From assembly GCA_937907525.1 (NCBI GenBank), contig CALCIB010000187.1, forward strand, positions 390 through 64,389: a stretch of 64,000 nt of DNA, given 5' to 3'. A program made the translations under genes and the position numbers. Below the pieces are notes generated by a model. The model did not search any database. It saw only the letters and a list, made by a program, of their open reading frames with translations, and was not told where the DNA came from. This stretch comes from an uncultured Planctomycetales bacterium. Lineage in GTDB: Bacteria; Planctomycetota; Planctomycetia; Isosphaerales; Isosphaeraceae. Below, one piece after another: positions 13,370 to 45,985 of this stretch (position 1 is the first letter of the stretch; each line of letters opens with the position of its first letter).

Positions 13370-14680
13370 TCAATCCCCAGGCCGCCACCACTCGTCGATC
13401 AGCCGCGTCAACTCCGCGACCCTGCCGGGCTCCGAGACGGCTAGATCAAGGGTCTCGTCGGGGTCGGCGGCCACGTTGTAAAGCCTTGGGGGATCGCCCG
13501 GCATGTTGACGGGGTCGGGCAGGACCAGCTTCCAGTCCCCCGCGACCGCCCAGCGATAGCGAAGACCCGCCGCCGGTCGGTCGAGGTCGGCGACGTCGTG
13601 CTTGTAGATCTCCCCGAAGACCGCGGGACGATCCGCCACCGCTTTCTCATCCAGCAGGTTCACGCCGCTCATCTCGGCCGCCGGCGTCACCCCCGCGGCG
13701 GCCAGGATCGTCGGAGCCACGTCGATCGAACTGACGGGCCGACTCACCTCCCTCGGCTTCACGTGGCCCGGCCATCGCGCGATGATCGGCGTCCGCAGGC
13801 CGCCGTCCTGGGACGACAGCTTGGACCTCGGCGCGTACCGGGGCCGCTCCGGATCCTGGATCCAGCCGTTATCGGCCAGGAAGACGACCAGCGTGTCGTC
13901 CGCGACGTTCCGCGCGTCGAGGTGGTCGAGCAACTCGCCGCAGGTCTCGTCGAACCACTCGATCATCGCCCAGTACTTCGCGACGAGGGGGCTGGGGGCG
14001 ACGTCCAGGTACTTCGCCAGCAGACGCTCCGGCGGCGTATGGGGTTGATGAGGCATCATCGGCGCGTACCAGACGAAGAACGGCCGGTCGGCGTCCACCG
14101 AGCGGTCGATGAAGTCCAGCACCGGCCGCATCGTCTTGCGACCGATCTCAAGGCCGACGTCGCCGTGACGACCGCCGCGCGCCAGGTCGCCGTGGGTCAT
14201 GCCCTCGGCGAAGCCTCCCACGTCGAAGTTCCCGCCCCACCACTTGCCCGCCTGGAACGTGGCGTAGCCGTGTTCTCCCAGCAGCCTGGGGATGGTCGGA
14301 GCGGCCTTGAGGAAGCCCTCCATCCGTCGCCGCCCTTCAAGCAAGGCCGGGTCGTCGAGCAGCTTGCCGAAGCGGCTGGCCGTCCCCGGCGGGTCGTTGC
14401 CCGTCACCTTGTGTTGGTGGGCGTATTGCCCCGTGATGATCGACGCCAGGCTCGGCGAGCACAGGCTGGTCGGCACGTACCCGCGACGGAAGGTCAGCCC
14501 CTCGGCCGCGAGTCGGTCGATCCGCGGAGTCTTCACGTGCGGATGACCCATGAACGAAAAATCGGTCCAGGCGTGATCGTCCGAGATGATCAAGACCACG
14601 TTCGGCGGCCGGTCGGCGGCGGAGGCCGAAGCGGAAATCGCGACGAAGGACGCCAGGACCAGGGCGACGAAACCGCGCAT
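13370..14680 (-). CDS. Sulfatase (formylglycine-type fold), 436 aa
   Basis: Signal peptide; PPNVVLIISDDH, TPRIDRLAAEG, SLCSPSLASIITG, GKWWGG, DTLVVFLADNG, GDWKL, LYNVAADPDE. Confidence 0.9.
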   Translation of the reverse strand: MRGFVALVLASFVAISASASAADRPPNVVLIISDDHAWTDFSFMGHPHVKTPRIDRLAAEGLTFRRGYVPTSLCSPSLASIITGQYAHQHKVTGNDPPGTASRFGKLLDDPALLEGRRRMEGFLKAAPTIPRLLGEHGYATFQAGKWWGGNFDVGGFAEGMTHGDLARGGRHGDVGLEIGRKTMRPVLDFIDRSVDADRPFFVWYAPMMPHQPHTPPERLLAKYLDVAPSPLVAKYWAMIEWFDETCGELLDHLDARNVADDTLVVFLADNGWIQDPERPRYAPRSKLSSQDGGLRTPIIARWPGHVKPREVSRPVSSIDVAPTILAAAGVTPAAEMSGVNLLDEKAVADRPAVFGEIYKHDVADLDRPAAGLRYRWAVAGDWKLVLPDPVNMPGDPPRLYNVAADPDETLDLAVSEPGRVAELTRLIDEWWRPGD

Positions 14681-14852
14681 GTCGATTCTCCCCATATCGT
14701 TCGGATCGCCTGGAAGACGTCGCCACTGTATCCGTCCGACGCCCCTCGCGAAATCCCCCGGCGGCCCCTGGACAATTTCAGGCGGACGCGCGTATAGTAA
14801 CCGGCCTGGAGAAAGAGACGACGGTCGGGAGGGAAGGGGAGGCGTTTCAGGG

Positions 14853-21389
<6,537 letters not shown>

Positions 21390-23547: not shown

Positions 23548-23871
23548 ATGATTGGCGACGGAGCCGCGACCAGGACGGTGACGACGACGGCCTCGACGGG
23601 GATCGACGTCGAACGGATCGGTCTCGACGACCGCCTCCGCGAACTCCTCGGCCTCCCGAGCGACGACCCGTCTCGGACTTGGGGAGACAGGGTCGCGGAG
23701 GCGATCGTCGCCGCCGCGGCCAGGGGCGACGCCCGCTCGTGGGGAGTCCTCTTCCGCCGCGCCGGCGCTGGCGCCGCGTCCGAGGCGGCCGGGACGGCCA
23801 TCGACGACGAGACCGCCCGCAGAATCCTGGAGGCCGCCCTTGGACGAGTCGACGATCAATCGCTTGATTAG
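23548..23871 (+). CDS. Putative terminase small subunit (107 aa)
   Basis: Size and position overlapping the large-terminase start; helical; no sequence motif recognised. Confidence 0.45.
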   Translation: MIGDGAATRTVTTTASTGIDVERIGLDDRLRELLGLPSDDPSRTWGDRVAEAIVAAAARGDARSWGVLFRRAGAGAASEAAGTAIDDETARRILEAALGRVDDQSLD

Positions 23872-25420
23872 GTCCGTGCGCGATCGGCGGCCCCGGACGT
23901 TGGACGAACTCCAGGCCTGGATCGAGGCCTTCGTCGGCGTCCGGATCCCGGCGCGGGCCGTCTGTCCCGGCCACTCCTCCCCGCTGGAGATGTTCGCCTC
24001 CCAGGTGCTGGATCGACCGTCTCTGGCGCTTTGGCACGGCCCGAGAGGGAGCGGCAAATCGTTTCTCTCGGCGCTCGACACCCACCTGGCGAGCCGCTTC
24101 AACCCGCGCCACGAAACCCACGTCCTGGGCGGGTCGCGGGCGCAGTCGGAGCAGATCTACCGCGCCCTCAAGGATCTGGTTCTCGAGGGAGCGGGGCCGC
24201 TCGGAAGCGACCGCGACTCGATCCGACGGCTTCTGAAGACGGAGGCGTCCTACGGCAACGGATCGCGGGTGGCGATCCTGTCGGCGAGCCCCACGAGCGT
24301 CCGCGGCCCCCACGTCGCCTCGCTGAAACTGGACGAGGTCGACGAGATCGACCCGGACATCCGCGAGTCGGCGATCGGCATGGCGATGGACCGCCGAGGA
24401 GTCCGGTCGAGCGTCCTGATGACCTCGACCTGGCATCGCCCGGCCGGCCCGATGGCGGATCTCGTCGACCAGGCGTGCGGGGGGGCCTTCCCGATCCACA
24501 CCTTTTGCGCCTTCGAGGTCCTGGAGCGCTGCCCGACCGAGCGGAGCGGCCCGAACCTGGAGAAGTGTCCGGACTGCCCGCTCATGGCCTGGTGCCACGA
24601 GGGCCGCGACGACGACCCTCTGGGCCGCCCCAAGGCCAAGCGAAGCAATGGACATTATTCGATCGACTCCCTGATTCAGAAGGTCCGGGGCGTCTCGCCG
24701 CGGGTCTTCGCCAGCGACTACCTGTGCCGCGGGCCGAAGGTCGACGGCGTCTGGTTCAAGGAGTTCGACGAGTCCCGGAACGTCTCCGAGGAGGCGGAGT
24801 TCGATCCGTCGCTGCCGGTCCACGTCGCGATCGACTCGGGAGTCTTCACGGGAGCCGTGGCGTTCCAGGTCCACCAAGGCTGGGAGTGGGCCGACCCACC
24901 GGAGCCGTCACGAGTCCACGTCTTCGCCGACTATCTGGCGGAGGGCCGCTCGGCCGAGACGTGCGCCCTCGAAATCCGGGAGTTTCTCGATCGGCTCTGC
25001 GGCTCCGCGAAGCGGTTCGTGTCCACCGACTCGGCCGGAGGGGCCAGGAATCCCGTCGGCCCGACGGTGATCTCGGAGTTTCAGAGATGCGGACTCGTCG
25101 GCGACACGGGTTTGCAAACCTGGCCCCGATATCCCGGATGCGTGATCGAGGGGCTGAACTTGATTGAAAGCCTGGTCCGGACGGCCGACGGCCGCCCCCG
25201 GCTGCTCATCCACCCCCGTTGCGCCCAACTCTCCGCGTCGCTCAAGAGCTACGCGAGGGCCCGCCGCGCGGGCCAGTGGATGGACTACCCCGCGGACCCG
25301 CAACACCCCTGGGAAGACCTCGTCGACGCGCTGCGGGGCGGGCTGGGCGTCGCGCTGCCCGAGGGGACGACCCCCGCGGCCCGCCCGCTCCGACGCGCCC
25401 GCGCCGACCGCGTGTTTTAA
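23840..25420 (+). CDS. Phage terminase large subunit
   Basis: Walker A HGPRGSGKS, Walker B LKLDEVDE, coupling motif MTST, RNase H-like nuclease residues (AIDSG, STDSAG, DLVDALR). TTG start uncertain. Confidence 0.88.
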   Translation: MDESTINRLIRSVRDRRPRTLDELQAWIEAFVGVRIPARAVCPGHSSPLEMFASQVLDRPSLALWHGPRGSGKSFLSALDTHLASRFNPRHETHVLGGSRAQSEQIYRALKDLVLEGAGPLGSDRDSIRRLLKTEASYGNGSRVAILSASPTSVRGPHVASLKLDEVDEIDPDIRESAIGMAMDRRGVRSSVLMTSTWHRPAGPMADLVDQACGGAFPIHTFCAFEVLERCPTERSGPNLEKCPDCPLMAWCHEGRDDDPLGRPKAKRSNGHYSIDSLIQKVRGVSPRVFASDYLCRGPKVDGVWFKEFDESRNVSEEAEFDPSLPVHVAIDSGVFTGAVAFQVHQGWEWADPPEPSRVHVFADYLAEGRSAETCALEIREFLDRLCGSAKRFVSTDSAGGARNPVGPTVISEFQRCGLVGDTGLQTWPRYPGCVIEGLNLIESLVRTADGRPRLLIHPRCAQLSASLKSYARARRAGQWMDYPADPQHPWEDLVDALRGGLGVALPEGTTPAARPLRRARADRVF

Positions 25421-25468: not shown

Positions 25469-27070
25469 ATGCTGAACTCGAATACGATCGGCGCGTCGGT
25501 CCATCCGACGTCAGGGGCGGCGATGCCTCGGATAGCCCTGCCGGACGGTCGGCGGTTGGACCGCCCTCATCCCGAATGGCTGGCGCACCATCTCCGCTGG
25601 CGATGGCTGCTCGACTCGTGGGAGGGCGGCGAGGCCTACCGCACCGCCGTCTACGGGTACGACATGCACGGGATGCCCGTGCGGAACCTGGTCCGTCATA
25701 AACGGGAGTACCCGTCGTCCACCGACGCCGGCGCTTATCCCTTGGGCGGGAGGCCGTTCGGCACCGATCCCGCCTATCAGGCGACGGACGACGACTACGA
25801 ACTGCGACGGGCCAGGACGCCGGTCCCGACCTTCGTCTCGGAAGCGGTCGAGGCCCATCTCGCCCGCATCTACAGCCGCGAGGTGCGCCGCGCCGGCCCC
25901 GAGTCGTTGACCTCGTGGTGGCGCGACGTCGACGGTCGGGGGGCTTCGATCGACGATTTCATGTCGAGTTCGGTCGCCCCGCTCCTCCTGGTGCTGGGCC
26001 AGCTCGATCTGATCGTCGATCGTCCGGCCGCCCCCGACGGCGAACCGGTGCGGACCCGCGCCGACGAGATCCGGCTGGGGCTCGACGCCTGCGCGGCCTC
26101 CTACGTTCTCCCGGAAAACATGGTCTGGTGGCGCCTGGACCGCGCCGGACGGTATCTCGAATGCCTCGTTCGAGAGGTCGACGACCGAGGCGGCGTCTCC
26201 TGGCGTCACTGGAACGAGAATATCTGGACGTTGTTCGATGACCGCGGCGAGAAGGTCCGCGGGCCCTTCGAACACGGATACGGCCGCGTCCCGATCATCC
26301 GAGTCTTCGATCGTCGACGGCCGCGCTGCCGGAACATCGGACTTCCCAGGTATGAAAGCATCGCTGAGATCCAGCGCGAGTTTTACAACCGCGACAGCGA
26401 GCTGATCCTCAGCGACACGACGCAGGCGCACCCGCTGCTGCAGGGTCCCGAGGACTACGTGAAGGCCGACGGGGCCGTGCCGATCGGGCCCAACTGGCTG
26501 CTCCCCAAGAAGAAGAACGCCCAAGGGGGGGCGACGACCTACGAGGGGTTCGACGTCATCCGGTTCCCCAAGGAAGGGGCGGACTCCCTGCGGATGAACA
26601 AGGCCGATCTGAGGGACGCCGCCGACCGCGCCGCGCTCTTGTTGAAGCCCGCCGGATCGGCGGGGACGAGCGGGTCGACCGTGGCCCAGAGCGGGATCTC
26701 GAAGCGGATCGACCAGGCGGCGGGCAACGACCTCTTGAGCAAGATCGCCGCGACGCTGGGCGGGATAGAGCGCCGTCTGGCCGATTTGGCGCTGGCCGTC
26801 ATGGGGGCCGATCCGACGGCCGAGGATCGCGAGGCGATCCGCGTGCAGTATCCGTCGTCCTTCGACCTATACACCGGGGAAGAGTTGGCTCGCGCGGTCG
26901 GTCAATTCCAGACCGTGCTGGGCGCCGCGGGCCACGCCCCCAAGACGGAGCGGGAGATGCTCGGCAAACTCGTCCGAGTGATGCTCCCGGGGCTGGACGA
27001 CTCGGACTACGGCGAATTCGACGTCGAGATCGAGACGTACCTCGGTCTCGACGCGGAGACTCGGGCTTGA
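25469..27070 (+). CDS. Phage portal protein, 533 aa
   Basis: Directly after TerL; portal size; HGYGRVPIIRV, YNRDSELILS, AQSGISKRID motifs resemble SPP1/DUF4055-type portals. Confidence 0.75.
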   Translation: MLNSNTIGASVHPTSGAAMPRIALPDGRRLDRPHPEWLAHHLRWRWLLDSWEGGEAYRTAVYGYDMHGMPVRNLVRHKREYPSSTDAGAYPLGGRPFGTDPAYQATDDDYELRRARTPVPTFVSEAVEAHLARIYSREVRRAGPESLTSWWRDVDGRGASIDDFMSSSVAPLLLVLGQLDLIVDRPAAPDGEPVRTRADEIRLGLDACAASYVLPENMVWWRLDRAGRYLECLVREVDDRGGVSWRHWNENIWTLFDDRGEKVRGPFEHGYGRVPIIRVFDRRRPRCRNIGLPRYESIAEIQREFYNRDSELILSDTTQAHPLLQGPEDYVKADGAVPIGPNWLLPKKKNAQGGATTYEGFDVIRFPKEGADSLRMNKADLRDAADRAALLLKPAGSAGTSGSTVAQSGISKRIDQAAGNDLLSKIAATLGGIERRLADLALAVMGADPTAEDREAIRVQYPSSFDLYTGEELARAVGQFQTVLGAAGHAPKTEREMLGKLVRVMLPGLDDSDYGEFDVEIETYLGLDAETRA

Positions 27071-27140: not shown

Positions 27141-27806
27141 GTGAACGATCAAGCGAGCGTCGACGTCGCTCCGGACGCGGCCGATCAGTCCGGCCCGTCG
27201 CGGGGCGAGGAGCGTCAGCGGTTGCGGGCCCTGGAGGCCCAACTGTCGGACGTCCGACGCCAGCAGGACGCGGCGTTGGAGATGAAGGATCAGGAGCGTC
27301 TGCGGGCCCTGGCCGAGAAGGGTCAGATCGAGGAGGCGCTTGAGCAGCAGCGCCGGACCTGGGAGCGGAAGCACGCCGAGGCGGTCTCCCGATACACGCT
27401 TTTGGAACAGCAGGTCTTCGGCGAGAGAAAATCGGCCGCGATCGCCGACGCCCTCCAGGGTCGGGCGTTCGTCGGCGAAACGTCGGAGCAGCGTTCGGCC
27501 GCCGCGGCGATGGTCCGTCGACTTCTCCAGGACGAGTTCGAGACGGTTCGAGAGGCGTCGGGCGCGCTCGTGGTCCGCGAGCGGTCCAGCGGTCGTCCGG
27601 CCGGAGAGGCCCTCCGCGAGCGCCTCGACTCGCCGCAGTTCGCGATCTTCTTCGCGGCGACGTCGCGTGGGGGGGCGGGCGGCGACGCCTCGCGACCGTA
27701 CGCCGCCCCGAGAGGGGCCCAGCCGGGATCGCTCGAGGCGATCGTCGACCAGTGGAGAGACCGGCAAAACCAGTACCAGTCGTTCGGGCTGCACCCGCTG
27801 GTGTGA
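27141..27806 (+). CDS. Capsid scaffolding protein, 221 aa
   Basis: Coiled-coil E/Q/R-rich sequence between portal and capsid; C-terminal FFAATSRGGAGG linker. Confidence 0.7.
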   Translation: MNDQASVDVAPDAADQSGPSRGEERQRLRALEAQLSDVRRQQDAALEMKDQERLRALAEKGQIEEALEQQRRTWERKHAEAVSRYTLLEQQVFGERKSAAIADALQGRAFVGETSEQRSAAAAMVRRLLQDEFETVREASGALVVRERSSGRPAGEALRERLDSPQFAIFFAATSRGGAGGDASRPYAAPRGAQPGSLEAIVDQWRDRQNQYQSFGLHPLV

Positions 27807-27874: not shown

Positions 27875-29011
27875 ATGCCCTCGTATGAGAACAGCCCGCT
27901 GACCCAGTTCAACGCCTTCAGCGCCGGCGTCCTGCCCAACGACGTCTTCGGCGTGGCGATCAACTGGTTCGTCAACCGGACCCCGCTGACGTCGCGGCTG
28001 CCGAAGCTGCCGGTCGGATCGCCCCACTTCCTGATCGTCAACGACAACTATCGACCTCGCTCGGTGGCGTTGAACGCAGCCCTGACGGCCGCCGCGACGT
28101 CGCTGACCGCCGCGGACGCCTCGGTGTTCGACTCGGGAGACGTCATCCAGGTCGAGCAGGAGTACCTGCTGGTGACGGCCGTGGATCCATCGACGAACAC
28201 CGTGACGGTGGCCCGAGGCTACGCGGGCACGACGGCGGCCGCGCACGCCAACGCCCAGCCCATCTTCCTGGTGAGCAACACGCGGACCGGCGCCGAGACG
28301 AACGTCTCCGGCCTCAGCCGGATCCCCCAGGCGACCACTCAGTATTGCCAGACGGTGCAGCACGCCTACCAGGTCGGCGGGGCGCTGCAGGCCGACGCCA
28401 ACTACGGCTCGGCCTACGCGACTCCGCTCGACCGCGACCGGATGCTGGCGATGCAGCACGTCATGGACGACTTCGAGTCGGCGGTGTATTACGGCAAGGG
28501 GGTCGGCCTGTCCAGCCCGTCGAGCCGGCCGCTGATGAAGGGGATTCAGTCGCTCCTGTCGACCAACAACGTCACTTCGCCGACGAACGCGGCGGCGTAC
28601 AAGCCGAGCGACCTGATCCGCGACACCATCCAGGCGTGCTTCAACGGCGGCGGCAACCCCAGCCTGCTTTTGGTCAGCACGGACTTCCTGTCGGCCTTCG
28701 CCGTCTGGGGTCACGCCGCGATGCGGGTCAACGCCGGGAGCAACGTCTTCGGCGTGCCGATCGATCTGTTCGAGGCCCCGTTCCTTTCCGGCATCTCCAT
28801 CGTGCCGGCGCCGCTGCTGCGCCCGGGCACGGCGGTCTGCCTCTCGGCCAGCGAGGCACGGGTGCGGTTGAAGCGGTCGATGATCGACAAGCCGCGCGGC
28901 AGCCGCGGCGACGCCTTCGAGGGCGACATCATCATGGAGGGCGCCGTCGAGATCGACAACGAGGCGCATCACGCCTGGGTCTCCGGGATCTCGGCCTTCA
29001 GCGCCGCCTGA
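27875..29011 (+). CDS. Major capsid protein (HK97 fold, DUF5309/SU10-like), 378 aa
   Basis: TQYCQTVQHAYQVGG, MDDFESAVYYG, RPLMKGIQSLL and RGDAFEGDIIMEGAVEIDNE resemble the DUF5309 pattern; follows the scaffold gene. Confidence 0.8.
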   Translation: MPSYENSPLTQFNAFSAGVLPNDVFGVAINWFVNRTPLTSRLPKLPVGSPHFLIVNDNYRPRSVALNAALTAAATSLTAADASVFDSGDVIQVEQEYLLVTAVDPSTNTVTVARGYAGTTAAAHANAQPIFLVSNTRTGAETNVSGLSRIPQATTQYCQTVQHAYQVGGALQADANYGSAYATPLDRDRMLAMQHVMDDFESAVYYGKGVGLSSPSSRPLMKGIQSLLSTNNVTSPTNAAAYKPSDLIRDTIQACFNGGGNPSLLLVSTDFLSAFAVWGHAAMRVNAGSNVFGVPIDLFEAPFLSGISIVPAPLLRPGTAVCLSASEARVRLKRSMIDKPRGSRGDAFEGDIIMEGAVEIDNEAHHAWVSGISAFSAA

Positions 29012-29083: not shown

Positions 29084-29452
29084 ATGAGCACAACTCGTTC
29101 CTTCACGTTCCCCGGCTTGTGGCCTTATATCGAACGCGCGGCCGAGGGGCGGCGCCTTCCGTTCCTGGGCCGCGGGCGTGAGCTGTGGCATTACAAGCAG
29201 GTCCAGGACGCGCTGGGCCAACTCCCCGGCCTCGCCGCGAGCGATCGGCGCGAGTCGTTGGCCCACGTCGCGGCGGTGCGGGACTCGCTCGCCGCGACGC
29301 TCGACGGGATCGACCTGGCCGTGCTGGAGACGGTCCAGGGCCTGGGCGGCGGCGAGTCTCGGGATCCCGCGTGCGGCGCCTCCGAGCCGGCGGAGTCGCA
29401 ACCGCGTCGCGGCCTCGCGGCGCGACGGCGGCGCGACTCCCAAAACGAATAA
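29084..29452 (+). CDS. Hypothetical protein (122 aa)
   Basis: In-operon ORF after capsid gene; no motif recognised. Confidence 0.6.
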   Translation: MSTTRSFTFPGLWPYIERAAEGRRLPFLGRGRELWHYKQVQDALGQLPGLAASDRRESLAHVAAVRDSLAATLDGIDLAVLETVQGLGGGESRDPACGASEPAESQPRRGLAARRRRDSQNE

Positions 29453-29478
29453 ACACCCTTCAGCCTGCGAGCCATTCC

Positions 29479-30156
29479 ATGAGTCAGTCAGACCGGCTCA
29501 CGATCCTCTACGCCGACGACGAGGACGTCGCGGTCCACGCCCCAGGCGACTTCGCGGTGCTGGCGCCGGCCTGGCAGAAGATCGCCCAGGGCTCCGACGG
29601 CGTTTTCGGGTCCGGCCCTAGCTGGACCCTTGCGTCGGCGACGTCGGACTTCGAGGCGGCCGGGGCCCGACCGGGCCATGTGATCCAATTGCGAAAACCC
29701 ACGTCGGTCTTCAAAGGCGCGGGCGAACTCTTCGCCGTCGAGGGGGCCGTCGGGGGCTCGCTGACGATCCGCCGCGTCGGCATGCCCGCGGGCGCCGGGG
29801 CTCCGCCCGCGCCGGCCTCGGGCCTCTCCGGCGTGGAGTTCGTCATCGCCACCCTGTCGCCGCAGATCGAGGAGGCGAGCTTCGATCTGAACCGTCTGTT
29901 CGCCATCGATCCACTCGCGCCTGGTCGAACGCCCTCGGATCTCCACGACGTTCGGGAACTCCGCCGCGCCTGCGTCCTCGGCGTGCTCGTCCGCCGCTAT
30001 GCGGCCGAGTCGCGCGGCTCCGACGGAGACTTCGCGCAAAAACTCCGACAGGCCGAAGCCGAGTTGGCCGAGGTCCTGGCGCGCCTGGAAGTGCGCTGGG
30101 GGTCGGCCGTCGACCGGTCGTCGTCCTCGATCTTCTCCACACGAATCGTGAGGTGA
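29479..30156 (+). CDS. Putative head-tail adaptor/head completion protein (225 aa)
   Basis: Position after capsid; helical C-terminus (ELRRACVLGVLVRRY...FAQKLRQAEAELAEVL). Confidence 0.45.
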   Translation: MSQSDRLTILYADDEDVAVHAPGDFAVLAPAWQKIAQGSDGVFGSGPSWTLASATSDFEAAGARPGHVIQLRKPTSVFKGAGELFAVEGAVGGSLTIRRVGMPAGAGAPPAPASGLSGVEFVIATLSPQIEEASFDLNRLFAIDPLAPGRTPSDLHDVRELRRACVLGVLVRRYAAESRGSDGDFAQKLRQAEAELAEVLARLEVRWGSAVDRSSSSIFSTRIVR

Positions 30157-38634: not shown

Positions 38635-39051
38635 ATGGCCGCGACCAAGCTCCAGTCGAACTGGACGGCTGTTTCTTTCAACTCGGCCCCGATCTCTCGG
38701 GTGACGCAAGTGAGCTTCACCCAGGGGGGGACCCTTACGACCTACGCGGCCGACGGCGACCATTTCCCCACGGTCATCGTCAATACGATGAGCAAGCCCA
38801 AGGCGACCGTCGCCAGCGGCGACGTCGCGGCCCTCATGGCGATCGCGCCCGGGGTCTCTGGGACCTTCAGCGCGACCCACAAGGACGCCAAGGGGGAGGC
38901 CGGCGGAGACATCCTCTACGTCCTGGCCAACGCGGTGGCCGAAAACTCCGAGACCTCGGGGGCCCACGGCGAGTTCGGGACCGCGACCCTCACCCTCATG
39001 GCCTACTCCTCCGACGGAACCACCAACCCGCTCAGCTTCACCAGGGCTTGA
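38635..39051 (+). CDS. Putative major tail tube protein (138 aa)
   Basis: AGGAGG SD; small T/S/G/A-rich beta protein upstream of a frameshifting chaperone gene. Confidence 0.6.
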   Translation: MAATKLQSNWTAVSFNSAPISRVTQVSFTQGGTLTTYAADGDHFPTVIVNTMSKPKATVASGDVAALMAIAPGVSGTFSATHKDAKGEAGGDILYVLANAVAENSETSGAHGEFGTATLTLMAYSSDGTTNPLSFTRA

Positions 39052-39108: not shown

Positions 39109-39414
39109 ATGGAAGCCATGCCAATCGACGCGTTGATCGTTCCCGAGTCGTGGAAGAGCGGCGGCACGCAACTGGACCGGATCGACTCGATCCTCCGCGT
39201 GGCGGAACCCCTGCTGGGGGTGGACCGCTCGCGCGGGCAAAGGGCCTACATCCGCCGCCAACCGGGAGGCCGCCTCTTCATCACGACGGACCCCCGCGAC
39301 ACGATCTCCTTTCCGATCGGACACCCGCGCGAGGGTCGTCCCCGCTACACCTGGACCGCGGCCCCCGACGGCTCGGAACGCGGATCCCTGGTCGAGGAGG
39401 CTCGCGATGCTTGA
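39109..39414 (+). CDS. Hypothetical protein (101 aa)
   Basis: In-operon ORF whose stop overlaps the next start. Confidence 0.55.
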   Translation: MEAMPIDALIVPESWKSGGTQLDRIDSILRVAEPLLGVDRSRGQRAYIRRQPGGRLFITTDPRDTISFPIGHPREGRPRYTWTAAPDGSERGSLVEEARDA

Positions 39415-39820
39415 CGAGCGGGCGCTCCGCCGAACGAAGTTCTCCCCGGGGCCGGAGGTGACCCTCGGGGACGGAGGGAAATGGTCGCTCCCGACGCCGA
39501 GCCTGCGCCTGTTCCCCCTCAGGGGCGAGGACGGCCGAATCACGGTCGGCGGCGGCCCCAGCTTCGGCGCCGAATATGAGGCGCTGATGGACGATCTGGC
39601 CGATTGCGACCCCGAGGACGCGACCGGTCGTTTGACCATTCAGTTCCGGATGGCGGCCATGCTGCTGACGCGCAACTACGACCTTGCCGATCGCGACCTC
39701 CGTGAACTACTCGTCATCGACGCCGAGGATCCCGAGTGCCGCGAGCGCTGGCGGGAAATCAACCGGGTCATGACGGGCCGCGCCCCAAAACGTTTAGCCG
39801 ATGGCTCCGCTGCACCCTGA
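39407..39820 (+). CDS. Tail assembly chaperone (gpG-like), 137 aa
   Basis: GAGGAGG SD; position after tube gene; slippery heptamer near the 3' end. Confidence 0.65.
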   Translation: MLDERALRRTKFSPGPEVTLGDGGKWSLPTPSLRLFPLRGEDGRITVGGGPSFGAEYEALMDDLADCDPEDATGRLTIQFRMAAMLLTRNYDLADRDLRELLVIDAEDPECRERWREINRVMTGRAPKRLADGSAAP

Positions 39821-39972
39821 TCGCGAACGGGGTCGCCCAGGACCTGCCCTGGGAGGACGCCATCGGCGTCTCGGAAATGCTGGTGGCCCTGGGTCGAGCC
39901 GTCCCTCCCTCGCGATGGGTGGACGGCCAGCAAGCCAGGGCCCGGGAAGCCGCCCTCGAAGCCCTCTTCTGA
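39784..39972 (+). other. -1 programmed frameshift site (C CCA AAA, 39784-39790) and gpGT-like extension frame
   Basis: Heptamer is in the correct X XXY YYZ phase in the 39407 frame (GCC CCA AAA); the -1 frame stays open to TGA 39970-39972. Confidence 0.7.
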
Positions 39973-39997: not shown

Positions 39998-40792
39998 ATG
40001 GGCCTCGACGAGTTTCTCATCCCTCAAGAGTCCTCACCGGCGACGGACCCAGGGCCGCTCGGCGATCTTGACGAAGTCCTCCTGGCGCCGCCCATGGGAC
40101 TCGACGCCCCGGAAGAGCCGGCGGGGTCGGGGATCGCCGCTCCTTTGAAAACCGCTCTGATCGAGTCGCCGCCCACGAACGACGGACGCGAGGCCGCGAT
40201 GCCAAGCCGCGCCTCGGAGTCGGCCCCCTCGTTGGCGGACGTGATCGTCGCCGCGCCTTCCACGGACGAGGAGCGCGTGGGAACGGTCAAACCCGCCGGG
40301 CCGGAGTCGATCCGCCTTGGCGATCCGAAGCCCCGCGACGCGCGACCGTCCCCCCCGGCCCTCGAGACCTCGGGAAAGTCATGGGAGTTCCTCGCGACGG
40401 CCTGGGATTCCGCTCCTCCTCCCTCCAGCGGGGACGTCGGCCGGATCGATGACGAATTCGTCTCGACGTCGCCCTTGACTCGGGTCGACTGGGGCGCGAT
40501 CGCACCGGCGAACTCCATCTCGACCATTCCAGGGCGTCGGACGGAGGCCTCTCCCTCCCGTTCCATGGCTTCCATCGCTCGTTGGGACGACGGCTTCTCG
40601 GCGCCGACGGACTTCGGGAAGCCCCTGGACGGCCCGGTCGACGGCCCCGATTTCGAGAACGACCTCGACGGGCTCGGAGAGCGACTGTCACGGATCGTGG
40701 ATCGTCTGGAACGAACCGTGGAGCGATTCGCCCCCCCGTCGACCCCGCTCGGCGCGCGGCCCCGGCCGTTCCGCGGCCGGATCGACGGCTGA
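39998..40792 (+). CDS. Pro/Ser-rich protein in the tape-measure position (264 aa)
   Basis: Follows chaperone; acidic Pro-rich body with C-terminal amphipathic helix LGERLSRIVDRLERTVERF. Confidence 0.55.
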   Translation: MGLDEFLIPQESSPATDPGPLGDLDEVLLAPPMGLDAPEEPAGSGIAAPLKTALIESPPTNDGREAAMPSRASESAPSLADVIVAAPSTDEERVGTVKPAGPESIRLGDPKPRDARPSPPALETSGKSWEFLATAWDSAPPPSSGDVGRIDDEFVSTSPLTRVDWGAIAPANSISTIPGRRTEASPSRSMASIARWDDGFSAPTDFGKPLDGPVDGPDFENDLDGLGERLSRIVDRLERTVERFAPPSTPLGARPRPFRGRIDG

Positions 40793-40810: not shown

Positions 40811-41182
40811 ATGGTCACATTCAACGGCGAGAACATATTCGGGTCGGCCGTGCGGCTCCAGCACGTCGCGCGTCCCAGGGCCCAACAGGTCGTCGCCTTC
40901 TTCGGCGTCAGCGGGACTCAAGTCCTGGACGGCGGCGGCCGGGGGCGGGCCTTCTTCATCCGCGGGGTGCTCACCGCCCCGACGCTCGAGGGCCTCAACG
41001 CGATGGAGGCCAGGTTCCACGACTACGCCGACGGAACCGCCCGCGTCCTCGTCGACAACCGCGGTCGCGCGTGGTCGAACGTCGTCTTCAGGGGCGAGTT
41101 CGTTCCGGACCCGCGAGGCGCGGTCCCCGCGGGATCCGGTTGGGCCCTCCCGTACCGCGCCGTGTTTCACGGCCTGACATGA
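40811..41182 (+). CDS. Putative distal tail protein (123 aa)
   Basis: Position after the tape-measure slot; beta-rich small protein. Confidence 0.45.
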   Translation: MVTFNGENIFGSAVRLQHVARPRAQQVVAFFGVSGTQVLDGGGRGRAFFIRGVLTAPTLEGLNAMEARFHDYADGTARVLVDNRGRAWSNVVFRGEFVPDPRGAVPAGSGWALPYRAVFHGLT

Positions 41183-41213
41183 ACCGCCTCGTCCCCCGCG
41201 CGAGTCCCATTCC

Positions 41214-41909
41214 ATGCCATTCGACCAAGCATCGATCGTCGAAATGAAACCACCTAGATGGGACGGCGCGGCGCTGCAATTGTCGTGGGTCTCGACCGCG
41301 CCCGCCGGAACGACCTTCCAGGTCTACGTCGGCCGCCGCCTGGCCTGGTACGGGACGAACCGTTGGGTCGCCCTGACGATGCCGGACTCCCGAGTCCGGA
41401 TCGACGTCGGCGCGGTCGGCCCCGGCGAGGCGACGGTCGACTTCTCGTCGACGCTTCCGCCGGCCCCCGGAGACCGCGTGACGCTTACTTGGCTCGGCGG
41501 TTCGTACCTGGACCCGGAGGGCGGCGACGACGTCCAGGGCTTTCACGTCTTCGGTTCCAGGCGCGCCGGCTGGGACGTCGACTACACCGAGCCTCTGGCC
41601 GAGATTCCAGCCTATCCCGGCGGGTCGCCGATCGACGGATTCGGAATCGGCGGCTTCGGTCAAGGGGGATTCGGCCGGGCCGCGTCGACTTACCGCTGGA
41701 CGAGCGCCGCGCTCGGATCCGGGACGTGGACCTTCGCGGTCGTCCCGTTCGACGCGGTTGGAAACCAGGGGCCGGGGACGACCATGACGACGACCGTCGT
41801 CGCTCCTCCCCGCCCCCCGGCGGCCGACTCGGACGGCACTCGACTTCGATGCACGTACAACCCGGAGACGCGCCAGGCGACGCTCTCCTGGAACCCCAGC
41901 CCCGCCTGA
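41214..41909 (+). CDS. FN3-like tail-associated protein (231 aa)
   Basis: LQLSW, TFQVY, VTLTW, WTFAVVPFDAVGN; GFGIGGFGQGGFG loop. Confidence 0.6.
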   Translation: MPFDQASIVEMKPPRWDGAALQLSWVSTAPAGTTFQVYVGRRLAWYGTNRWVALTMPDSRVRIDVGAVGPGEATVDFSSTLPPAPGDRVTLTWLGGSYLDPEGGDDVQGFHVFGSRRAGWDVDYTEPLAEIPAYPGGSPIDGFGIGGFGQGGFGRAASTYRWTSAALGSGTWTFAVVPFDAVGNQGPGTTMTTTVVAPPRPPAADSDGTRLRCTYNPETRQATLSWNPSPA

Positions 41910-41928
41910 TACAGGAAACCGTCCGTTC

Positions 41929-42720
41929 ATGGCGACCACATACACTCCGCGGGCGAAGCTAGCCAAGCCGGGCCCGGCCGATCGCGAGTGGAACGTCCCG
42001 CTCAACGCCAACTCAGACGCCCTCGACGCTCTGTCCCCGATCGGAGGCCTCTGCGTCTCGCCGGCCGAATCCCCCAGCGCGACCCTTCGGATCCAGATCG
42101 CCGCCGGGCGGTTTCAACGTCGAGACGGCACGGTCGGGACGTTCGACGGATCGACCTCGTTCGCGCTCCTGGCTGATTCGAATTCATACGTCTACTTGAC
42201 CGACTCCGGCGACCTGACCGCCTCGTCCGCCGGATTCCCGGCCACGTCCCACGTGCCGCTCGCCATCGCGACCACGGGCGCCTCGGCCGTCACGGGCGTC
42301 GCGGACGTCCGGGTCGTGTGCGGGACGGTCGGCAACGATTCCAGACCCTTCCTGACCGCCGCCGGCGGCGCGATGAGCGACGGAGCGGCCTTCGCCGCCG
42401 GGTCGTCCTCCGGCCTCAAGATCGGCACATCGGCCTCCCAGAAGCTTGGGTTCTGGAACGCCGCCCCCGTCGCCCGGCCGGGAACCTATTCCCAGGGGTA
42501 CGCCGCCTCCTCTCGAAGCCTGGCGGCCTATACCCCGGCGCCCGCGTCGGCTCCGTTCGCGGGCGTGGGCCCGGGCCAGACGGGATCCCCTTACGCCCAA
42601 GTCTCCGATCTCAACACTCTCAGGACGTCGTATGAAAACCTGAGGCTGTTTTCCGAGAACGCGACCCAACTCCTCAACGCCCTCGTCAACGACCTGAAGG
42701 CGATGGGGCTGATCGGCTGA
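41929..42720 (+). CDS. Phage fibre protein (263 aa)
   Basis: N-terminal TPRAKLAKPG...WNVPLNANSDALD resembles fibre-attachment motifs; C-terminal LLNALVNDLKAMGLI resembles fibre trimerisation ends. Confidence 0.6.
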   Translation: MATTYTPRAKLAKPGPADREWNVPLNANSDALDALSPIGGLCVSPAESPSATLRIQIAAGRFQRRDGTVGTFDGSTSFALLADSNSYVYLTDSGDLTASSAGFPATSHVPLAIATTGASAVTGVADVRVVCGTVGNDSRPFLTAAGGAMSDGAAFAAGSSSGLKIGTSASQKLGFWNAAPVARPGTYSQGYAASSRSLAAYTPAPASAPFAGVGPGQTGSPYAQVSDLNTLRTSYENLRLFSENATQLLNALVNDLKAMGLIG

Positions 42721-42742
42721 CCGCCGCGAGAGGACGCACGGC

Positions 42743-44863
42743 ATGCCCCCGAGCTTCGATTTCGATCCGTACGAAGTCCCATTGTCAAGTCCGGCCGCGA
42801 CGGTCCAAGTCTGCCGGTACGATCCGGAGGTCGAAGTCGGGGCCGCGTTCGCGGCGCTCCCGAACGTGATCTGCGAGCGGATCCGCCACGCGGAAGGCCC
42901 CGAGCCGCCGACGGCCTGGTTCCGCTACGTCCTCGACGACGCCGCCCCCTCCGATCCCGCTCCGTTCGACTTCGGTCGGTTATGGCCCCAGAGCGCCGCG
43001 GGCCCTTACGTCGTCAGAAACGACGACCGTCTCGTCGTCCTGGTCCGCGGCGCCCACGGCGAATCCCACGTCCTGTTCGACGGGTTCGCACAGACGTCCC
43101 AGATCGATCTGGAACCTCATTCCCAGCGAGTCTCCTTCCTCGCGGTGGGAGTCGCGATCCGGTGCTGGGACGAACCGATCGGCGGACGTCTCCAGCGCCA
43201 CGCCGACGCCACGGAGGACGGCGACGCGGTCCTAGTCCAACTCCCAGCCCGTTTCAACCCCGACGGAAGGCCGAACTGCACTCCGGACGGAGCCGACGTC
43301 GAACGATCCGACGCCTCGGCACGCCACCCCGCGTTCCTGGATCCGGACCTTGATCGCGACCCCGACCCCAGGACCTACTGGACCCTGGGGAAGTTCGTCC
43401 GCTACGTCCTCGCGGTACACAACGATCAGGCCGTCGTGAAGAACCCGGACTTCGATCTCCTGGACGCCCTCCTCCAGTCCAAGGGACCGGCGCCGGGCGC
43501 GAACCCTCTCGGGCGGGGCACGGCCGCCGACGTGGTCGTCCGCGACTACGACGCGACGAACAAGCCATGGCCCGAGGCCCTCGCCGAGCAACTGGAACTC
43601 ACGGGGTTCGGAATGCGGTTCGTCACGGCCGAGGACGACGACGGCTCGCCGCGCACCGACCTGGAGGTCTACCGAAAGGACGCGGACGCCGGCGGCCCGC
43701 TCCGCGACTTGCTCCTGTCAAAAGCCGGGTCCGGCCTCAATCCCGCGCGCTGCAACGTCGCGTCTCTGCATCTCCGTCGAGACTTCCGCTCGATCGTGAA
43801 CGCGGTGACGGTCGAAACGGCCCAGCGTCGCGTCGAGGCGTCGTTCGTGCTGGCCCCCGGCTTCACTCCTTCCGCGGGCGACGAGTCGGCCGGCCAACGG
43901 GTCCGATTCCTTCGATCCAACCTCGCCGCGGCCGCCGGGGAAGACGATCGGAAATATCGATACTACGTCGCCGACGAGGCGGGCGACGGCCATTGGGACG
44001 CAGAGACGGCCTCCTGGTCGGAGTCCGCCCTGGACCTTGGAGCCCTGTTCCCGGACGACGAGGAAGGCAACCCCACTTACGTCAGGAGACTGCGGCCCGG
44101 CTCGACCCTTCTGGCGACCCGGGACGCGGAGGGCCGCCCGCTGCGGGCTCAACTCGCTCTGTCCCGCGACTACGCGGGGCCGACGCCGGGCTTGTGGGAC
44201 GGGACGGGCCACTGGCAGCCGATCGATGGCGGCTGGCGACTCCTGGAAGATCGGCTCGGCATTCACGTCGTGGCCGAAGATCCCGAGGCATGGGCGATCG
44301 GCGACTACACCGGCGACCATCCGCAAGAGCCCAGCAAGACCCTCCGAGGAGTAACCAGCCAGGCGAATCCGTCAGAGCCGAACGCACGCTTCGTCCTGCG
44401 CCTGACGACCGTGATCGAGGACGATCTCATGATCCCGGCTTCGGTCGAGTCGAGACCGGCGTCGCCGACTTCGTTCACCCGCCGACGAAGAGTGGACGCC
44501 CGCGACCATTTCGCCCTGGAGACGGTCGCGGCGCGGTCGCTGCACAATCCCGGATCCGAGTCTCAGACCGCGAGGGACGACACCGACCGGGCCGTCGCCT
44601 GGGCGCGCCAACTCCGCGCGGCCCACGAAATGCCGCCGACGGTCGGTTCGGCGACGCTCCCCGGCCTCGTCACCGCGTACAGGGTCGGCGACCGAGTCGC
44701 CCGGATCGACGGTCGCGACGTGGCGCTCCAGACCAACGTCGGCGAGGGCCAGGGCGAAGCCCCGGTCTACCCCACGATCTCGGCCGTCTCATGGGACTTT
44801 TCCGAGGACCGCCAGTCGACCGTCATCGAACTCACCGACGCCGACGTCGAACGCGGCGCCTGA
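42743..44863 (+). CDS. Putative baseplate hub/tail tip protein (706 aa)
   Basis: Size and position; YRVGDRVARIDG...ISAVSWDF...STVIEL C-terminus resembles hub proteins. Confidence 0.55.
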   Translation: MPPSFDFDPYEVPLSSPAATVQVCRYDPEVEVGAAFAALPNVICERIRHAEGPEPPTAWFRYVLDDAAPSDPAPFDFGRLWPQSAAGPYVVRNDDRLVVLVRGAHGESHVLFDGFAQTSQIDLEPHSQRVSFLAVGVAIRCWDEPIGGRLQRHADATEDGDAVLVQLPARFNPDGRPNCTPDGADVERSDASARHPAFLDPDLDRDPDPRTYWTLGKFVRYVLAVHNDQAVVKNPDFDLLDALLQSKGPAPGANPLGRGTAADVVVRDYDATNKPWPEALAEQLELTGFGMRFVTAEDDDGSPRTDLEVYRKDADAGGPLRDLLLSKAGSGLNPARCNVASLHLRRDFRSIVNAVTVETAQRRVEASFVLAPGFTPSAGDESAGQRVRFLRSNLAAAAGEDDRKYRYYVADEAGDGHWDAETASWSESALDLGALFPDDEEGNPTYVRRLRPGSTLLATRDAEGRPLRAQLALSRDYAGPTPGLWDGTGHWQPIDGGWRLLEDRLGIHVVAEDPEAWAIGDYTGDHPQEPSKTLRGVTSQANPSEPNARFVLRLTTVIEDDLMIPASVESRPASPTSFTRRRRVDARDHFALETVAARSLHNPGSESQTARDDTDRAVAWARQLRAAHEMPPTVGSATLPGLVTAYRVGDRVARIDGRDVALQTNVGEGQGEAPVYPTISAVSWDFSEDRQSTVIELTDADVERGA

Positions 44864-44884
44864 CTCCTCGCCCGGGGACCCCTC

Positions 44885-45211
44885 ATGTCCGACGCACGAA
44901 TCATGCGCGAGCGGCAGGAAACCGCGGCCTCCGCGATCCAGCGACTGTCTCCCTCCAGCCAAAACGGCTCGGAGGCGATGGTGGCGCGGACCAAGGTCCG
45001 CGGGACCTACCCCGCGGTCGCCTCCGCCTTCTACGCCTGCGGCCCCTTGCGAATCGACGGTCCCGAGACCGAGGGCGCGGCGGTGACGTTCACCGAGGAC
45101 CTCTCACGCACGATCATGGCGTTGAACGTCGGCTCCAAGGTCCCGCCGGTCGGCACGAAGTTGATCATCCATTCCAGCGGCGGTCGTTGGACGTTCCGCT
45201 ACGACGGTTGA
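44885..45211 (+). CDS. Hypothetical tail-tip protein (108 aa)
   Basis: In operon; paralogous to the N-terminal half of the next gene. Confidence 0.6.
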   Translation: MSDARIMRERQETAASAIQRLSPSSQNGSEAMVARTKVRGTYPAVASAFYACGPLRIDGPETEGAAVTFTEDLSRTIMALNVGSKVPPVGTKLIIHSSGGRWTFRYDG

Positions 45212-45256
45212 GCCTCCCGCGCCAAGGAACTTCTCCTCCCTACCGTTGGGTGTCCG

Positions 45257-45985
45257 ATGCCGAAAGACCCTCTCCGCCTGCTGCGTCTGAGGTGGGACGA
45301 CCTTCTGGGGCCCAACCCTCGGCACGGCCGTATCCCTCGTCTCGACCCGGACGCGCCCCCGTCCCCCGGCGCTCCAGGCTTCATCGGCCGCGTTCGAGAC
45401 GAGGGGGCGATTCCTCCCGCCGGCGAGCGAGTATTCCTCGCGAGCCCGGTAAGATTCGACGGGATCGACGCCGAGGGATCCGGCGCGGACCTCTCGACCG
45501 ACGAGTCGCGGTCGATTCCCGTCGTCGTGGTGGGCTCCCGAGCCCCCAAGGCGGGCGATCTGATCATCGTCCACGCATCCGGCGGTCGATGGGTGTCGGA
45601 GATCGGCGGCCCGCCGAAGACCGTGGCGTGCGGCGGATGCGAGGCGCCTCGTCAGAACCTCACCCTGACCTGGACGAACGGCATCCAGGGGGTCCAATCG
45701 TCTCCGATGACGTTCAACGGCCTCGACGAATGGAAGACGGGGTGTATCAACCAGATCGTTTTCCGGCTGTCCTGCCGAGCGGACGCGACGACGTTCTCGG
45801 CCGACCAGTACGCCGACGGATCTTGCCCGACCGGCCAGCCGACGACCTGCTCCAGTTCGGGATCGCCCTCGCCCGGGATGACGTTGACGATTCAGTCGTG
45901 CGACCCCTTCCTGCTTCAGTTCGCCCCGACCTCCTGTCCAGCCATTTCATCGCTTGGATACACGCGGTTCACCATCACGCGGTAA
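45257..45985 (+). CDS. Hypothetical tail-tip protein with Cys-rich C-terminal domain (242 aa)
   Basis: N-terminal half similar to 44885-45211; C-terminus with several Cys. Confidence 0.6.
   Translation: MPKDPLRLLRLRWDDLLGPNPRHGRIPRLDPDAPPSPGAPGFIGRVRDEGAIPPAGERVFLASPVRFDGIDAEGSGADLSTDESRSIPVVVVGSRAPKAGDLIIVHASGGRWVSEIGGPPKTVACGGCEAPRQNLTLTWTNGIQGVQSSPMTFNGLDEWKTGCINQIVFRLSCRADATTFSADQYADGSCPTGQPTTCSSSGSPSPGMTLTIQSCDPFLLQFAPTSCPAISSLGYTRFTITR

What the first reader, a model, noticed from the sequence alone, without database searches (positions are those of the whole stretch)
39407..39972. Conserved-style -1 ribosomal frameshift in the tail chaperone gene
The 137-aa ORF reads ...GCC CCA AAA CGT... 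with heptamer C CCA AAA at 39784-39790 in X XXY YYZ phase. A -1 slip continues as TFSRWLRCTLIANG...EAALEALF to the stop at 39972, giving a fusion of about 188 aa. The extension frame fills the gap to the next gene and has no SD-led start of its own. G/GT frameshifting between tube and tape-measure genes is an established hallmark of long-tailed phages. It identifies the neighbouring genes and suggests the tail module is still under selection.
Basis: partly seen in the sequence, partly recalled or inferred. Interest (0 to 1): 0.7.

Follow-up and report, generated by a model that had tools for sequence, protein, structure and literature searches.

The report
Tail-chaperone ribosomal frameshift, confirmed
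A phage-derived tail-assembly gene in a planctomycete genome very likely makes a second, longer protein when the ribosome slips back one base at a conserved CCCAAAA site followed by an RNA hairpin; this is a well-known phage trick, seen here in a protein family that no database yet names.

Summary
The 137-codon ORF 39407-39820 carries C_CCA_AAA at 39784-39790 in X_XXY_YYZ phase. A -1 slip adds 60 codons, ending at the stop 39970-39972, and gives a 188-aa fusion.

Comparative evidence for a programmed frameshift is strong:
- The heptamer is identical and in phase in all 35 related loci examined, down to about 35% protein identity. CCA and AAA are rare codons in this genome (2.9% of Pro, 15.6% of Lys).
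- The extension is 58-78 codons long (exactly 60 in the close clade) and evolves under purifying selection in the -1 frame.
- Five of 21 relatives have no start codon available for the extension.
- A hairpin of 10 bp or more always begins 3-6 nt after the heptamer. Its 3' arm lies in four different places in different lineages.

The chaperone identity rests on context and fold, not on sequence families. The gene at 38635-39051 has a tail-tube fold. The G domain model matches one predicted viral 'tail assembly chaperone'. In distant relatives the next gene looks like a classic 650-800 aa tape measure. No Pfam, PHROG or NCBIfam model hits the protein.

Two caveats apply in this lineage. The tape-measure position holds a short, proline-rich, fast-evolving 264-aa protein. 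A GTG with an SD-like GAGGA does exist in the -1 frame of the window, but it is not conserved.

Verdict: a real, ordinary mechanism and a new member of a known kind. No experiment was done.

The parts
38635..39051 (+). Tail tube protein candidate (138 aa), the most conserved gene of the module
   Evidence: The AF2 model has pLDDT 73. All of the best Foldseek PDB hits are tail-tube/Hcp-fold proteins: AFP and PVC tubes, siphophage R4C TTP 8gtb, GTA 6tba and phage 812 tube, at probability about 1.0 and E 1e-3 to 1e-2. There are 178 homologues, nearly all of 138 aa, all labelled 'hypothetical'.
39109..39414 (+). Conserved 101-aa ORF of unknown role between the tube gene and G; its end overlaps the G start by 8 nt
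   Evidence: It is syntenic at 62-90% identity in L001-L008. An ORF of 93-181 aa holds the same position in distant relatives. It has no family hit.
39407..39820 (+). G ORF (zero frame, 137 aa), the product of standard translation; GAGGAGG lies a few nt upstream of the ATG
   Evidence: There are 29 homologues, 28 of them of 137 aa, with P127 and K128 invariant. The AF2 G domain has pLDDT above 90. The top BFVD hit is 'Tail assembly chaperone' A0A6J5LCU1, E 1.2e-8, TM 0.73.
39784..39790 (+). Slippery heptamer C_CCA_AAA in X_XXY_YYZ phase
   Evidence: It is identical and in phase in 26/26 close loci, in 7 distant loci and in 2 complete genomes. The wobble C of the preceding codon is kept although that residue varies (A/S/V/P/N/G).
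39797..39867 (+). Predicted stimulatory RNA structure: a 12-bp stem (39797-39808 with 39855-39867, one bulge) starting 6 nt after the heptamer and closing two small hairpins (e.g. 39836-39841 with 39848-39853)
   Evidence: MFE and consensus folds agree. The 96-nt fold has z = -3.3, with 0/200 shuffles as stable. Third-position entropy falls from about 1.2 to about 0.2 bits from the heptamer exactly to 39867, well past the 0-frame overlap. Hairpins of 10 bp or more occupy the same place in all lineages, with different 3' arms. Within the close clade there is no useful covariation.
39790..39972 (+). T extension: 60 codons in the -1 frame plus the stop, reached only by the frameshift
   Evidence: The length is exactly 60 codons in 25/26 close loci. 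The synonymous share of codon differences is 0.48 in the -1 frame against 0.08-0.15 in the other frames. L005, L010, L016, L020 and L021 have no start codon in the open -1 frame upstream, and L020 has a stop 2 codons before CCC.
39998..40792 (+). Gene in the tape-measure position (264 aa): proline-rich, poorly conserved except the C-terminal ~50 residues (...RLSRxxxRLExxxERF...RPRPFRGRIDG)
   Evidence: In distant relatives the same position holds 653-802 aa Ala/Glu/Lys/Gln-rich proteins with repeats and a hydrophobic segment, which look like classic tape measures. No family hit.
40811..45985 (+). Downstream conserved tail-tip/baseplate-like genes (123, 231, 263, 706, 108 and 242 aa)
   Evidence: Synteny holds in all relatives. 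The only family signal is a weak PHROG 'central tail fiber J' hit for the 231-aa protein.

Best explanation
Gene 39407-39820 encodes the 'G' form of a phage tail assembly chaperone. Most ribosomes stop at 39820 and make the 137-aa protein.

A minority pause with tRNA-Pro on CCA and tRNA-Lys on AAA, held up by a stem-loop that begins 6 nt downstream. Both tRNAs slip back one base and re-pair with CCC and AAA. Translation then continues in the -1 frame to 39972. The result is a 188-aa G-T fusion with the junction ...GRAPK|TFSRW....

By analogy with lambda gpG/gpGT, the G part would coat the protein in the tape-measure position and the T part would recruit the tube protein (38635-39051). A fixed G:GT ratio would thus be set by translation.

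What is shown here is the sequence anatomy, its conservation, selection on the -1 frame, the lack of an alternative start in relatives, the tube fold upstream and the positional hairpin. What is inferred is the slip itself, its efficiency, and the binding partners and role of G and T.
For: 1. The heptamer is in phase. It is invariant in 26/26 close loci, in 7 distant family members at about 35% identity and in the complete genomes of Paludisphaera borealis and Aquisphaera giovannonii. It uses disfavoured codons.
2. In a set of 126 family representatives at 50% identity or less, P is kept in 114 and K in 103 at this position, followed by a short tail.
3. The extension has a fixed length and ends 0-25 nt before the next gene.
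4. Synonymous changes concentrate in frame 0 before the site (share 0.46) and in frame -1 after it (0.48).
5. An independent start is impossible in 5 of 21 loci.
6. Synonymous variation is suppressed from the heptamer to the 3' end of the stem.
7. A helix of 10 bp or more starts 3-6 nt after the heptamer in all 12 loci tested, against 9.3% of random coding positions in this window. At least four non-homologous 3' arms occur, and there are G-C/C-G swaps between lineages.
8. Context: a tube-fold gene lies upstream, there is a BFVD 'tail assembly chaperone' fold hit, and tape-measure-like genes lie downstream in relatives.
9. C_CCA_AAG is reported as highly shift-prone in E. coli, and G/GT frameshifting as widely conserved (PMC5009743, read).
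Against: - There is no direct evidence of the fusion protein. No RNA or proteomic data exist; only DNA metagenome runs hold the sequence.
- No Pfam, PHROG or NCBIfam chaperone model matches G, the fusion or 126 relatives.
- Foldseek against the PDB found nothing, and a PDB sequence profile search found nothing.
- The chaperone fold match is a single predicted structure whose name is itself an annotation.
- The T domain model is of low confidence.
- Within the close clade the stem is invariant, so covariation statistics are uninformative there. The 117-nt fold has z = -0.9.
- The gene in the tape-measure position of this lineage is short, proline-rich and not obviously helical.
- The window itself has a GTG with GAGGA in the -1 frame.
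Confidence: 0.85

Rival explanations
1. The frameshift is real, but the protein is not a tail assembly chaperone. On this reading it is some other virion or assembly protein that needs a C-terminally extended minor form.
For: There is no sequence-family membership and no PDB fold match. An extra ORF separates it from the tube gene. The downstream gene in this lineage is not a typical tape measure.
Against: The position directly upstream of 650-800 aa tape-measure-like genes in six distant relatives argues for a chaperone. So do the tube fold upstream, the BFVD hit named tail assembly chaperone, and a size and overlap geometry typical of G/GT pairs.
Confidence: 0.1
2. The downstream frame is a separate small gene, started at GTG 39736 (78 aa) behind the GAGGA motif. 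It overlaps the end of G and no frameshift occurs.
For: GTG 39736 with GAGGA 6 nt upstream exists in the window. A start codon at that place occurs in about half of the relatives.
Against: That start codon is a by-product of the invariant Cys111 codon (NNG TGC). It is CTG or absent in many loci. L005 and L020 have -1 frame stops 7 and 1 codons upstream, and L010, L016 and L021 have no start at all, yet all keep the extension. The SD-like motif is not conserved. Protein conservation in the -1 frame begins at the heptamer.
Confidence: 0.03
3. The split is damage. On this reading a once-continuous gene was broken by an indel or an assembly error in the A-run, in a decaying prophage.
For: The cluster lacks recognisable lysogeny, replication and lysis genes. 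Two database proteins (P0021, P0030) read through as single ORFs.
Against: The same arrangement occurs in 35 independent assemblies, including two finished genomes. P0021 and P0030 switch frame far upstream of the heptamer and look like indel-ridden contigs. Both frames are under purifying selection.
Confidence: 0.01

Closest known systems
Phage lambda gpG / gpGT tail assembly chaperones (-1 frameshift at G_GGA_AAG); the conserved G/GT pairs of long-tailed phages (Xu, Hendrix & Duda 2004, cited in PMC5009743)
   Same: Two overlapping ORFs lie downstream of the tube gene and upstream of the tape-measure position. There is an X_XXY_YYZ heptamer ending in a Lys codon near the end of the first ORF. 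The -1 extension has no start of its own and ends just before the next gene. The sizes are similar (137 aa and 188 aa here).
   Different: There is no detectable sequence similarity. The heptamer is C_CCA_AAA. A strong, conserved hairpin follows it; from memory, lambda's site was reported to work without such a stimulator, but this was not checked here. An extra ORF lies between the tube gene and G. The tape-measure-position gene in this lineage is short and proline-rich.
Actinobacteriophage (SEA-PHAGES) tail assembly chaperone frameshifts, about 2,400 annotated (PMC10885494)
   Same: These are high-GC hosts with the same gene order and routine -1 slips on XXXYYYZ-type motifs.
   Different: Those belong to recognised chaperone families and are annotated as joined genes. 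This family has no model, and the public records seen here name its members only as hypothetical proteins and do not call G and T as one gene.
E. coli dnaX and IS3-family -1 frameshift cassettes (mechanistic analogue only)
   Same: A Lys-codon heptamer plus a downstream stem-loop a few nucleotides after it. C_CCA_AAG is reported as highly shift-prone in E. coli (PMC5009743).
   Different: No conserved upstream SD-like stimulator was seen here. The biological role differs. The details of dnaX spacing are from memory, not tested.
Tail module of the Rhodobacter gene transfer agent (tube g9, chaperone genes, short tape measure g11)
   Same: A small tube protein of about 138 aa, with the GTA tube 6tba among the fold hits; a short protein in the tape-measure position; a structural-genes-only cluster at a fixed chromosomal site.
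   Different: There is no sequence relationship. Whether GTA chaperone genes use a frameshift was not checked. Particle production and DNA transfer are unknown here.

Membership tests
G/GT-type tail assembly chaperone pair of long-tailed phages | Two overlapping ORFs located between the major tail (tube) gene and the tape measure gene | tested here: met
   A tube-fold gene lies at 38635-39051, with one extra 101-aa ORF in between. Tape-measure-like 653-802 aa genes follow directly in six distant relatives. In the window itself the downstream gene is atypical.
G/GT-type tail assembly chaperone pair of long-tailed phages | Slippery X_XXY_YYZ heptamer in phase within the overlap, leading into the -1 ORF | tested here: met
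   C_CCA_AAA lies at 39784-39790. The permitted shift window is bounded by a -1 frame stop 2 codons upstream in L020 and by the 0-frame stop 10 codons downstream.
G/GT-type tail assembly chaperone pair of long-tailed phages | Frameshift site and extension conserved in relatives although the protein sequence diverges | tested here: met
   35/35 loci keep the heptamer, down to about 35% identity, and the extension is 58-78 codons. Selection is frame-specific.
G/GT-type tail assembly chaperone pair of long-tailed phages | Second ORF has no translation start of its own | tested here: met
   There is no start codon in 5 of 21 loci, and the start and SD in the window are not conserved.
G/GT-type tail assembly chaperone pair of long-tailed phages | Fusion protein made at a low, fixed ratio to G; both needed for tail assembly and absent from virions | not testable with these tools
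   This needs expression, mass spectrometry or Western blot, and genetics.
G/GT-type tail assembly chaperone pair of long-tailed phages | G binds the tape measure and T binds the tube protein | not testable with these tools
   No complex prediction or experiment was possible. The T domain model is of low confidence.
Known chaperone sequence/structure families (Pfam Phage_TAC_*, PHROG tail assembly chaperones, solved TAC structures) | Significant match to a family model or a solved structure | tested here: not met
   Pfam, PHROGs and NCBIfam gave 0 hits for G, for the fusion and for 126 relatives. A PDB profile search and Foldseek against the PDB gave nothing. tblastn against 50,697 phage genomes gave nothing meaningful. 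The only positive is one BFVD predicted structure named 'tail assembly chaperone' (E 1.2e-8).
Canonical bacterial -1 PRF cassette (heptamer + spacer + 3' structure) | Stable stem-loop or pseudoknot starting about 5-9 nt after the heptamer, maintained by selection | tested here: met
   The spacer is 6 nt in the window and the stem has 12 bp. Synonymous-site suppression extends to the 3' arm. Helices of 10-16 bp occupy the same place (3-6 nt after the heptamer) in all 12 loci tested, against a 9.3% background, with four different 3' arms and compensatory swaps between lineages. Covariation within the close clade is uninformative.

The most novel reading that the evidence does not exclude
The frameshift cassette may belong to a domesticated, vertically inherited head-tail gene cluster of Isosphaeraceae (window about 21.6-46.0 kb), not to an ordinary prophage.

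The cluster holds only structural or unknown genes. It sits at the same chromosomal site in Paludisphaera species and shares downstream neighbours with Aquisphaera. It diverges at the pace of the flanking host gene. Its tape measure has been replaced by a short, disordered protein.

If so, this would be a gene-transfer-agent-like particle system in Planctomycetota, whose tail assembly still depends on the conserved C_CCA_AAA frameshift.
Probability: 0.2. Interest if true: 0.7.

Novelty: new member of a known kind. Interest (0 to 1): 0.35.

Why it matters
It lets annotators join two ORFs into one frameshifted gene in a large, unnamed family: 759 clusters at 50% identity, none of the members seen named other than 'hypothetical'.

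It also anchors the tail module (tube, chaperone, tape-measure position) in planctomycete phage-like clusters, where almost no gene has a family assignment.

The cassette is a clean natural example of a slippery site frozen in place in a 70% GC genome while its stimulatory hairpin is repeatedly rebuilt from different downstream sequence.

Continued selection on the frameshift shows that the cluster is functional and not decaying. This bears on whether these conserved clusters are prophages or domesticated particles.

Tried and rejected
- Family searches found nothing. Pfam, PHROGs and NCBIfam gave no hit for G, the fusion, the neighbours or 126 family members.
- PDB searches found nothing for G. 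This covers the sequence profile and Foldseek. A PDB profile search for the tube protein returned only noise.
- tblastn of the fusion and of the tube protein against 50,697 phage genomes gave nothing meaningful.
- A scan of IMG/VR viral contigs found no relatives.
- Covariation statistics within the close clade are uninformative because the stem is invariant there. The z-score of the 117-nt fold is not significant; shorter windows and the positional test were more telling.
- The second CCCAAAA at 29439 was rejected as a frameshift site. It is at a gene's 3' end and not conserved, and the next gene starts at ATG 29479.
- P0021 (188 aa) was rejected as a natural in-frame fusion. It changes frame about 35 codons upstream of the PK site and looks like an indel artefact.
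- Transcriptional slippage was rejected because the A-run is only four bases. This rests on established knowledge that slippage needs longer runs.
- No sheath gene was found, so a contractile tail is unlikely, although most genes have no assignment.
- A literature search found no description of this cluster or of Isosphaeraceae GTAs.

Full report
**Observation.** The window is 70% G+C. The ORF from ATG 39407 to TGA 39820 encodes 137 aa. Near its end the codons read GCC CCA AAA CGT, so C_CCA_AAA lies at 39784-39790 in X_XXY_YYZ phase. After a -1 slip the reading frame gives TFSRWLRCTLIANG...EAALEALF, 60 codons, with its stop at 39970-39972. The fusion is 188 aa. The next gene starts at 39998. 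GC3 moves from the G frame to the -1 frame just after the site. In-phase XXXYYYZ motifs (Y = A or T) are rare here, 4 in 30.5 kb of coding sequence. CCA makes up 2.9% of Pro codons and AAA 15.6% of Lys codons.

**Context.** The gene lies in a phage-like structural cluster on the + strand.
- The head genes are a large terminase (23840-25420), a portal (25469-27070), a scaffold protein (27141-27806) and a major capsid protein of the SU10 family (27875-29011, Pfam E 5e-42).
- A run of genes with no family assignment follows.
- The 138-aa protein at 38635-39051 was modelled from 47 homologues. All of its best PDB matches are tail-tube/Hcp-fold proteins.
- A conserved 101-aa ORF (39109-39414) lies between this gene and G.
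- The flanks of the cluster are host genes.

**Conservation of the site.** A protein search returned 31 hits, 28 of them 137-aa homologues; across those 28 P127 and K128 are invariant.
- DNA of 8 genome loci and 18 metagenome loci was fetched. These come from Paludisphaera, Aquisphaera and other Isosphaeraceae.
- All 26 loci covering the site, the window included, have CCCAAAA in phase. In 25 of them the extension is exactly 60 codons.
- The residue before Pro varies (A, S, V, P, N), but its wobble base is always C.
- A profile search found 759 family clusters at E of 1e-3 or better. Among 126 representatives, P is kept in 114 and K in 103 at this position, followed by a short tail.
- Seven distant members at about 35% identity have the same in-phase CCCAAAA. 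They are L071, L073, L074 (Singulisphaera), L075, L076, L077 (a second cluster in Paludisphaera soli) and L078. Their extensions are 58-78 codons and end at the start of the next gene.
- The finished genomes of P. borealis and A. giovannonii show the same arrangement.

**Is the extension translated, and only by frameshifting?** Among 20 loci, synonymous changes make up 0.46 of codon differences in frame 0 for the G body, against 0.10-0.13 in the other frames. For the non-overlapping part of T the share is 0.48 in the -1 frame, against 0.08-0.15. Both parts are therefore protein-coding, each in its own frame.

The window has a GTG at 39736 with GAGGA upstream. That codon is a by-product of the invariant Cys111 codon. 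L010, L016 and L021 have no start codon in the open -1 frame. L005 and L020 have stops 7 and 1 codons upstream of the heptamer. Conservation of the T peptide starts right at the heptamer. The two database proteins that read through (P0021, P0030) change frame far upstream and look like indel artefacts.

**RNA stimulator.** Six nucleotides after the heptamer a 12-bp stem forms, 39797-39808 with 39855-39867. It encloses two small hairpins.
- Third-position entropy drops from about 1.2 to about 0.2 bits from codon 126 to codon 154 of the fusion. This runs exactly to the 3' end of the stem and well beyond the end of the zero-frame overlap. It then returns to 1.2-1.5 bits.
- Inside the close clade the stem is almost invariant, so covariation tests say nothing.
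- Across the family the picture is clearer. All 12 loci tested have a helix of 10-16 bp starting 3-6 nt after the heptamer. Only 9.3% of random coding positions in this window do.
- The 3' arm is built from four different downstream segments. These encode DAIG, AANG, YA(T/S)G and (R/Q)MAG.
- G-C/C-G swaps occur at the stem base (window versus L074) and between L071 and L073.
- This is inference from sequence; no structure probing was done.

**Chaperone identity.** The AF2 model of the fusion has a confident G domain, a beta-hairpin followed by four helices with pLDDT above 90. The T domain is of low confidence.
- Foldseek found nothing in the PDB.
- In BFVD the only significant hit is a protein named 'Tail assembly chaperone' from an uncultured Caudovirales phage (E 1.2e-8, TM 0.73 on the target, 23% identity).
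- In distant relatives the gene after G-T is 653-802 aa, rich in Ala, Glu, Lys and Gln, poor in Pro, with repeats and a hydrophobic segment. This is the usual look of a tape measure.
- Together with the tube fold upstream, this places G-T where lambda G/GT sits. The lambda mechanism and its wide conservation are summarised in PMC5009743. PMC10885494 reports about 2,400 annotated cases in actinobacteriophages.
- No sequence family confirms membership.

**Oddities of this lineage.** The gene in the tape-measure position (39998-40792) is only 264 aa and 14% proline. It is poorly conserved apart from its last ~50 residues. In close relatives it is 264-352 aa.

The whole 24-kb cluster shows no recognisable integrase, repressor, replication or lysis gene and has no tRNA.
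- It lies next to the same UvrA-like gene in three Paludisphaera-like genomes.
- It shares downstream neighbours with P. borealis and A. giovannonii.
- Its genes diverge about as much as the flanking host gene.
- P. soli carries this cluster and also a second one with a full-length tape measure.

This suggests vertical inheritance and possibly domestication, but it was only partly followed up.

**Verdict.** This is a programmed -1 frameshift of the G/GT kind in a previously unnamed chaperone family. The mechanism is ordinary and no product was observed. The points of modest interest are the invariance of the slippery site, the repeatedly re-formed hairpin, and the possibly domesticated cluster it serves.

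Noticed in passing
window 21600-46000; L027, L028, L031, L079, L080: The 24-kb head-tail cluster has only structural or unknown genes, with no integrase, repressor, replication or lysis gene and no tRNA recognised. It sits beside the same UvrA-like gene in three Paludisphaera-like genomes. It shares downstream neighbours (g47118, pentapeptide protein) with P. borealis and Aquisphaera giovannonii. Its genes diverge like the flanking host gene. It may be a domesticated, GTA-like element.
   Followed up: partly
window 39998-40792: The gene in the tape-measure position is short (264 aa), 14% proline and fast-evolving, and keeps only a conserved C-terminal ~50 aa ending in RPRPFRGRIDG. Distant relatives have 653-802 aa tape-measure-like proteins there. 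Paludisphaera soli carries both kinds of cluster (L028, L077).
   Followed up: partly
window 39797-39867; L071 8405, L073 8381, L075 3875, L076 3881, L077 3896: The hairpin after CCCAAAA keeps its position, but its 3' arm is recruited from four different downstream segments in different lineages. This is an example of structure turnover inside a coding region.
   Followed up: partly
window 39109-39414: A conserved 101-aa ORF of unknown function sits between the tube gene and G, overlapping the G start by 8 nt. An ORF of 93-181 aa holds this position throughout the family.
   Followed up: no
window 29439-29445: The only other CCCAAAA in the window lies at the 3' end of the 122-aa gene 29084-29452 and is not conserved in relatives. 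The listed ORF 29185-30156 is over-extended; its real start is probably ATG 29479.
   Followed up: yes
window 44885-45211 and 45257-45985: The 108-aa and 242-aa proteins at the end of the tail module are paralogues (29-44% identity in cross-matches). They are kept as a pair in all relatives that extend that far.
   Followed up: no
window 14586-21389: A 2,267-aa protein with duplicated UvrA-type domains (UvrA interaction and DNA-binding domains, several ABC ATPase regions) lies directly upstream of the cluster. It is 82-86% identical in Paludisphaera relatives.
   Followed up: no
L006 5994-8623: In one Isosphaeraceae MAG the tape-measure position is expanded to 2.6 kb by an inserted 500-codon ORF with GC3 of 0.95. 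That locus also has a second, degraded copy of the tube gene at 4270-4673.
   Followed up: no
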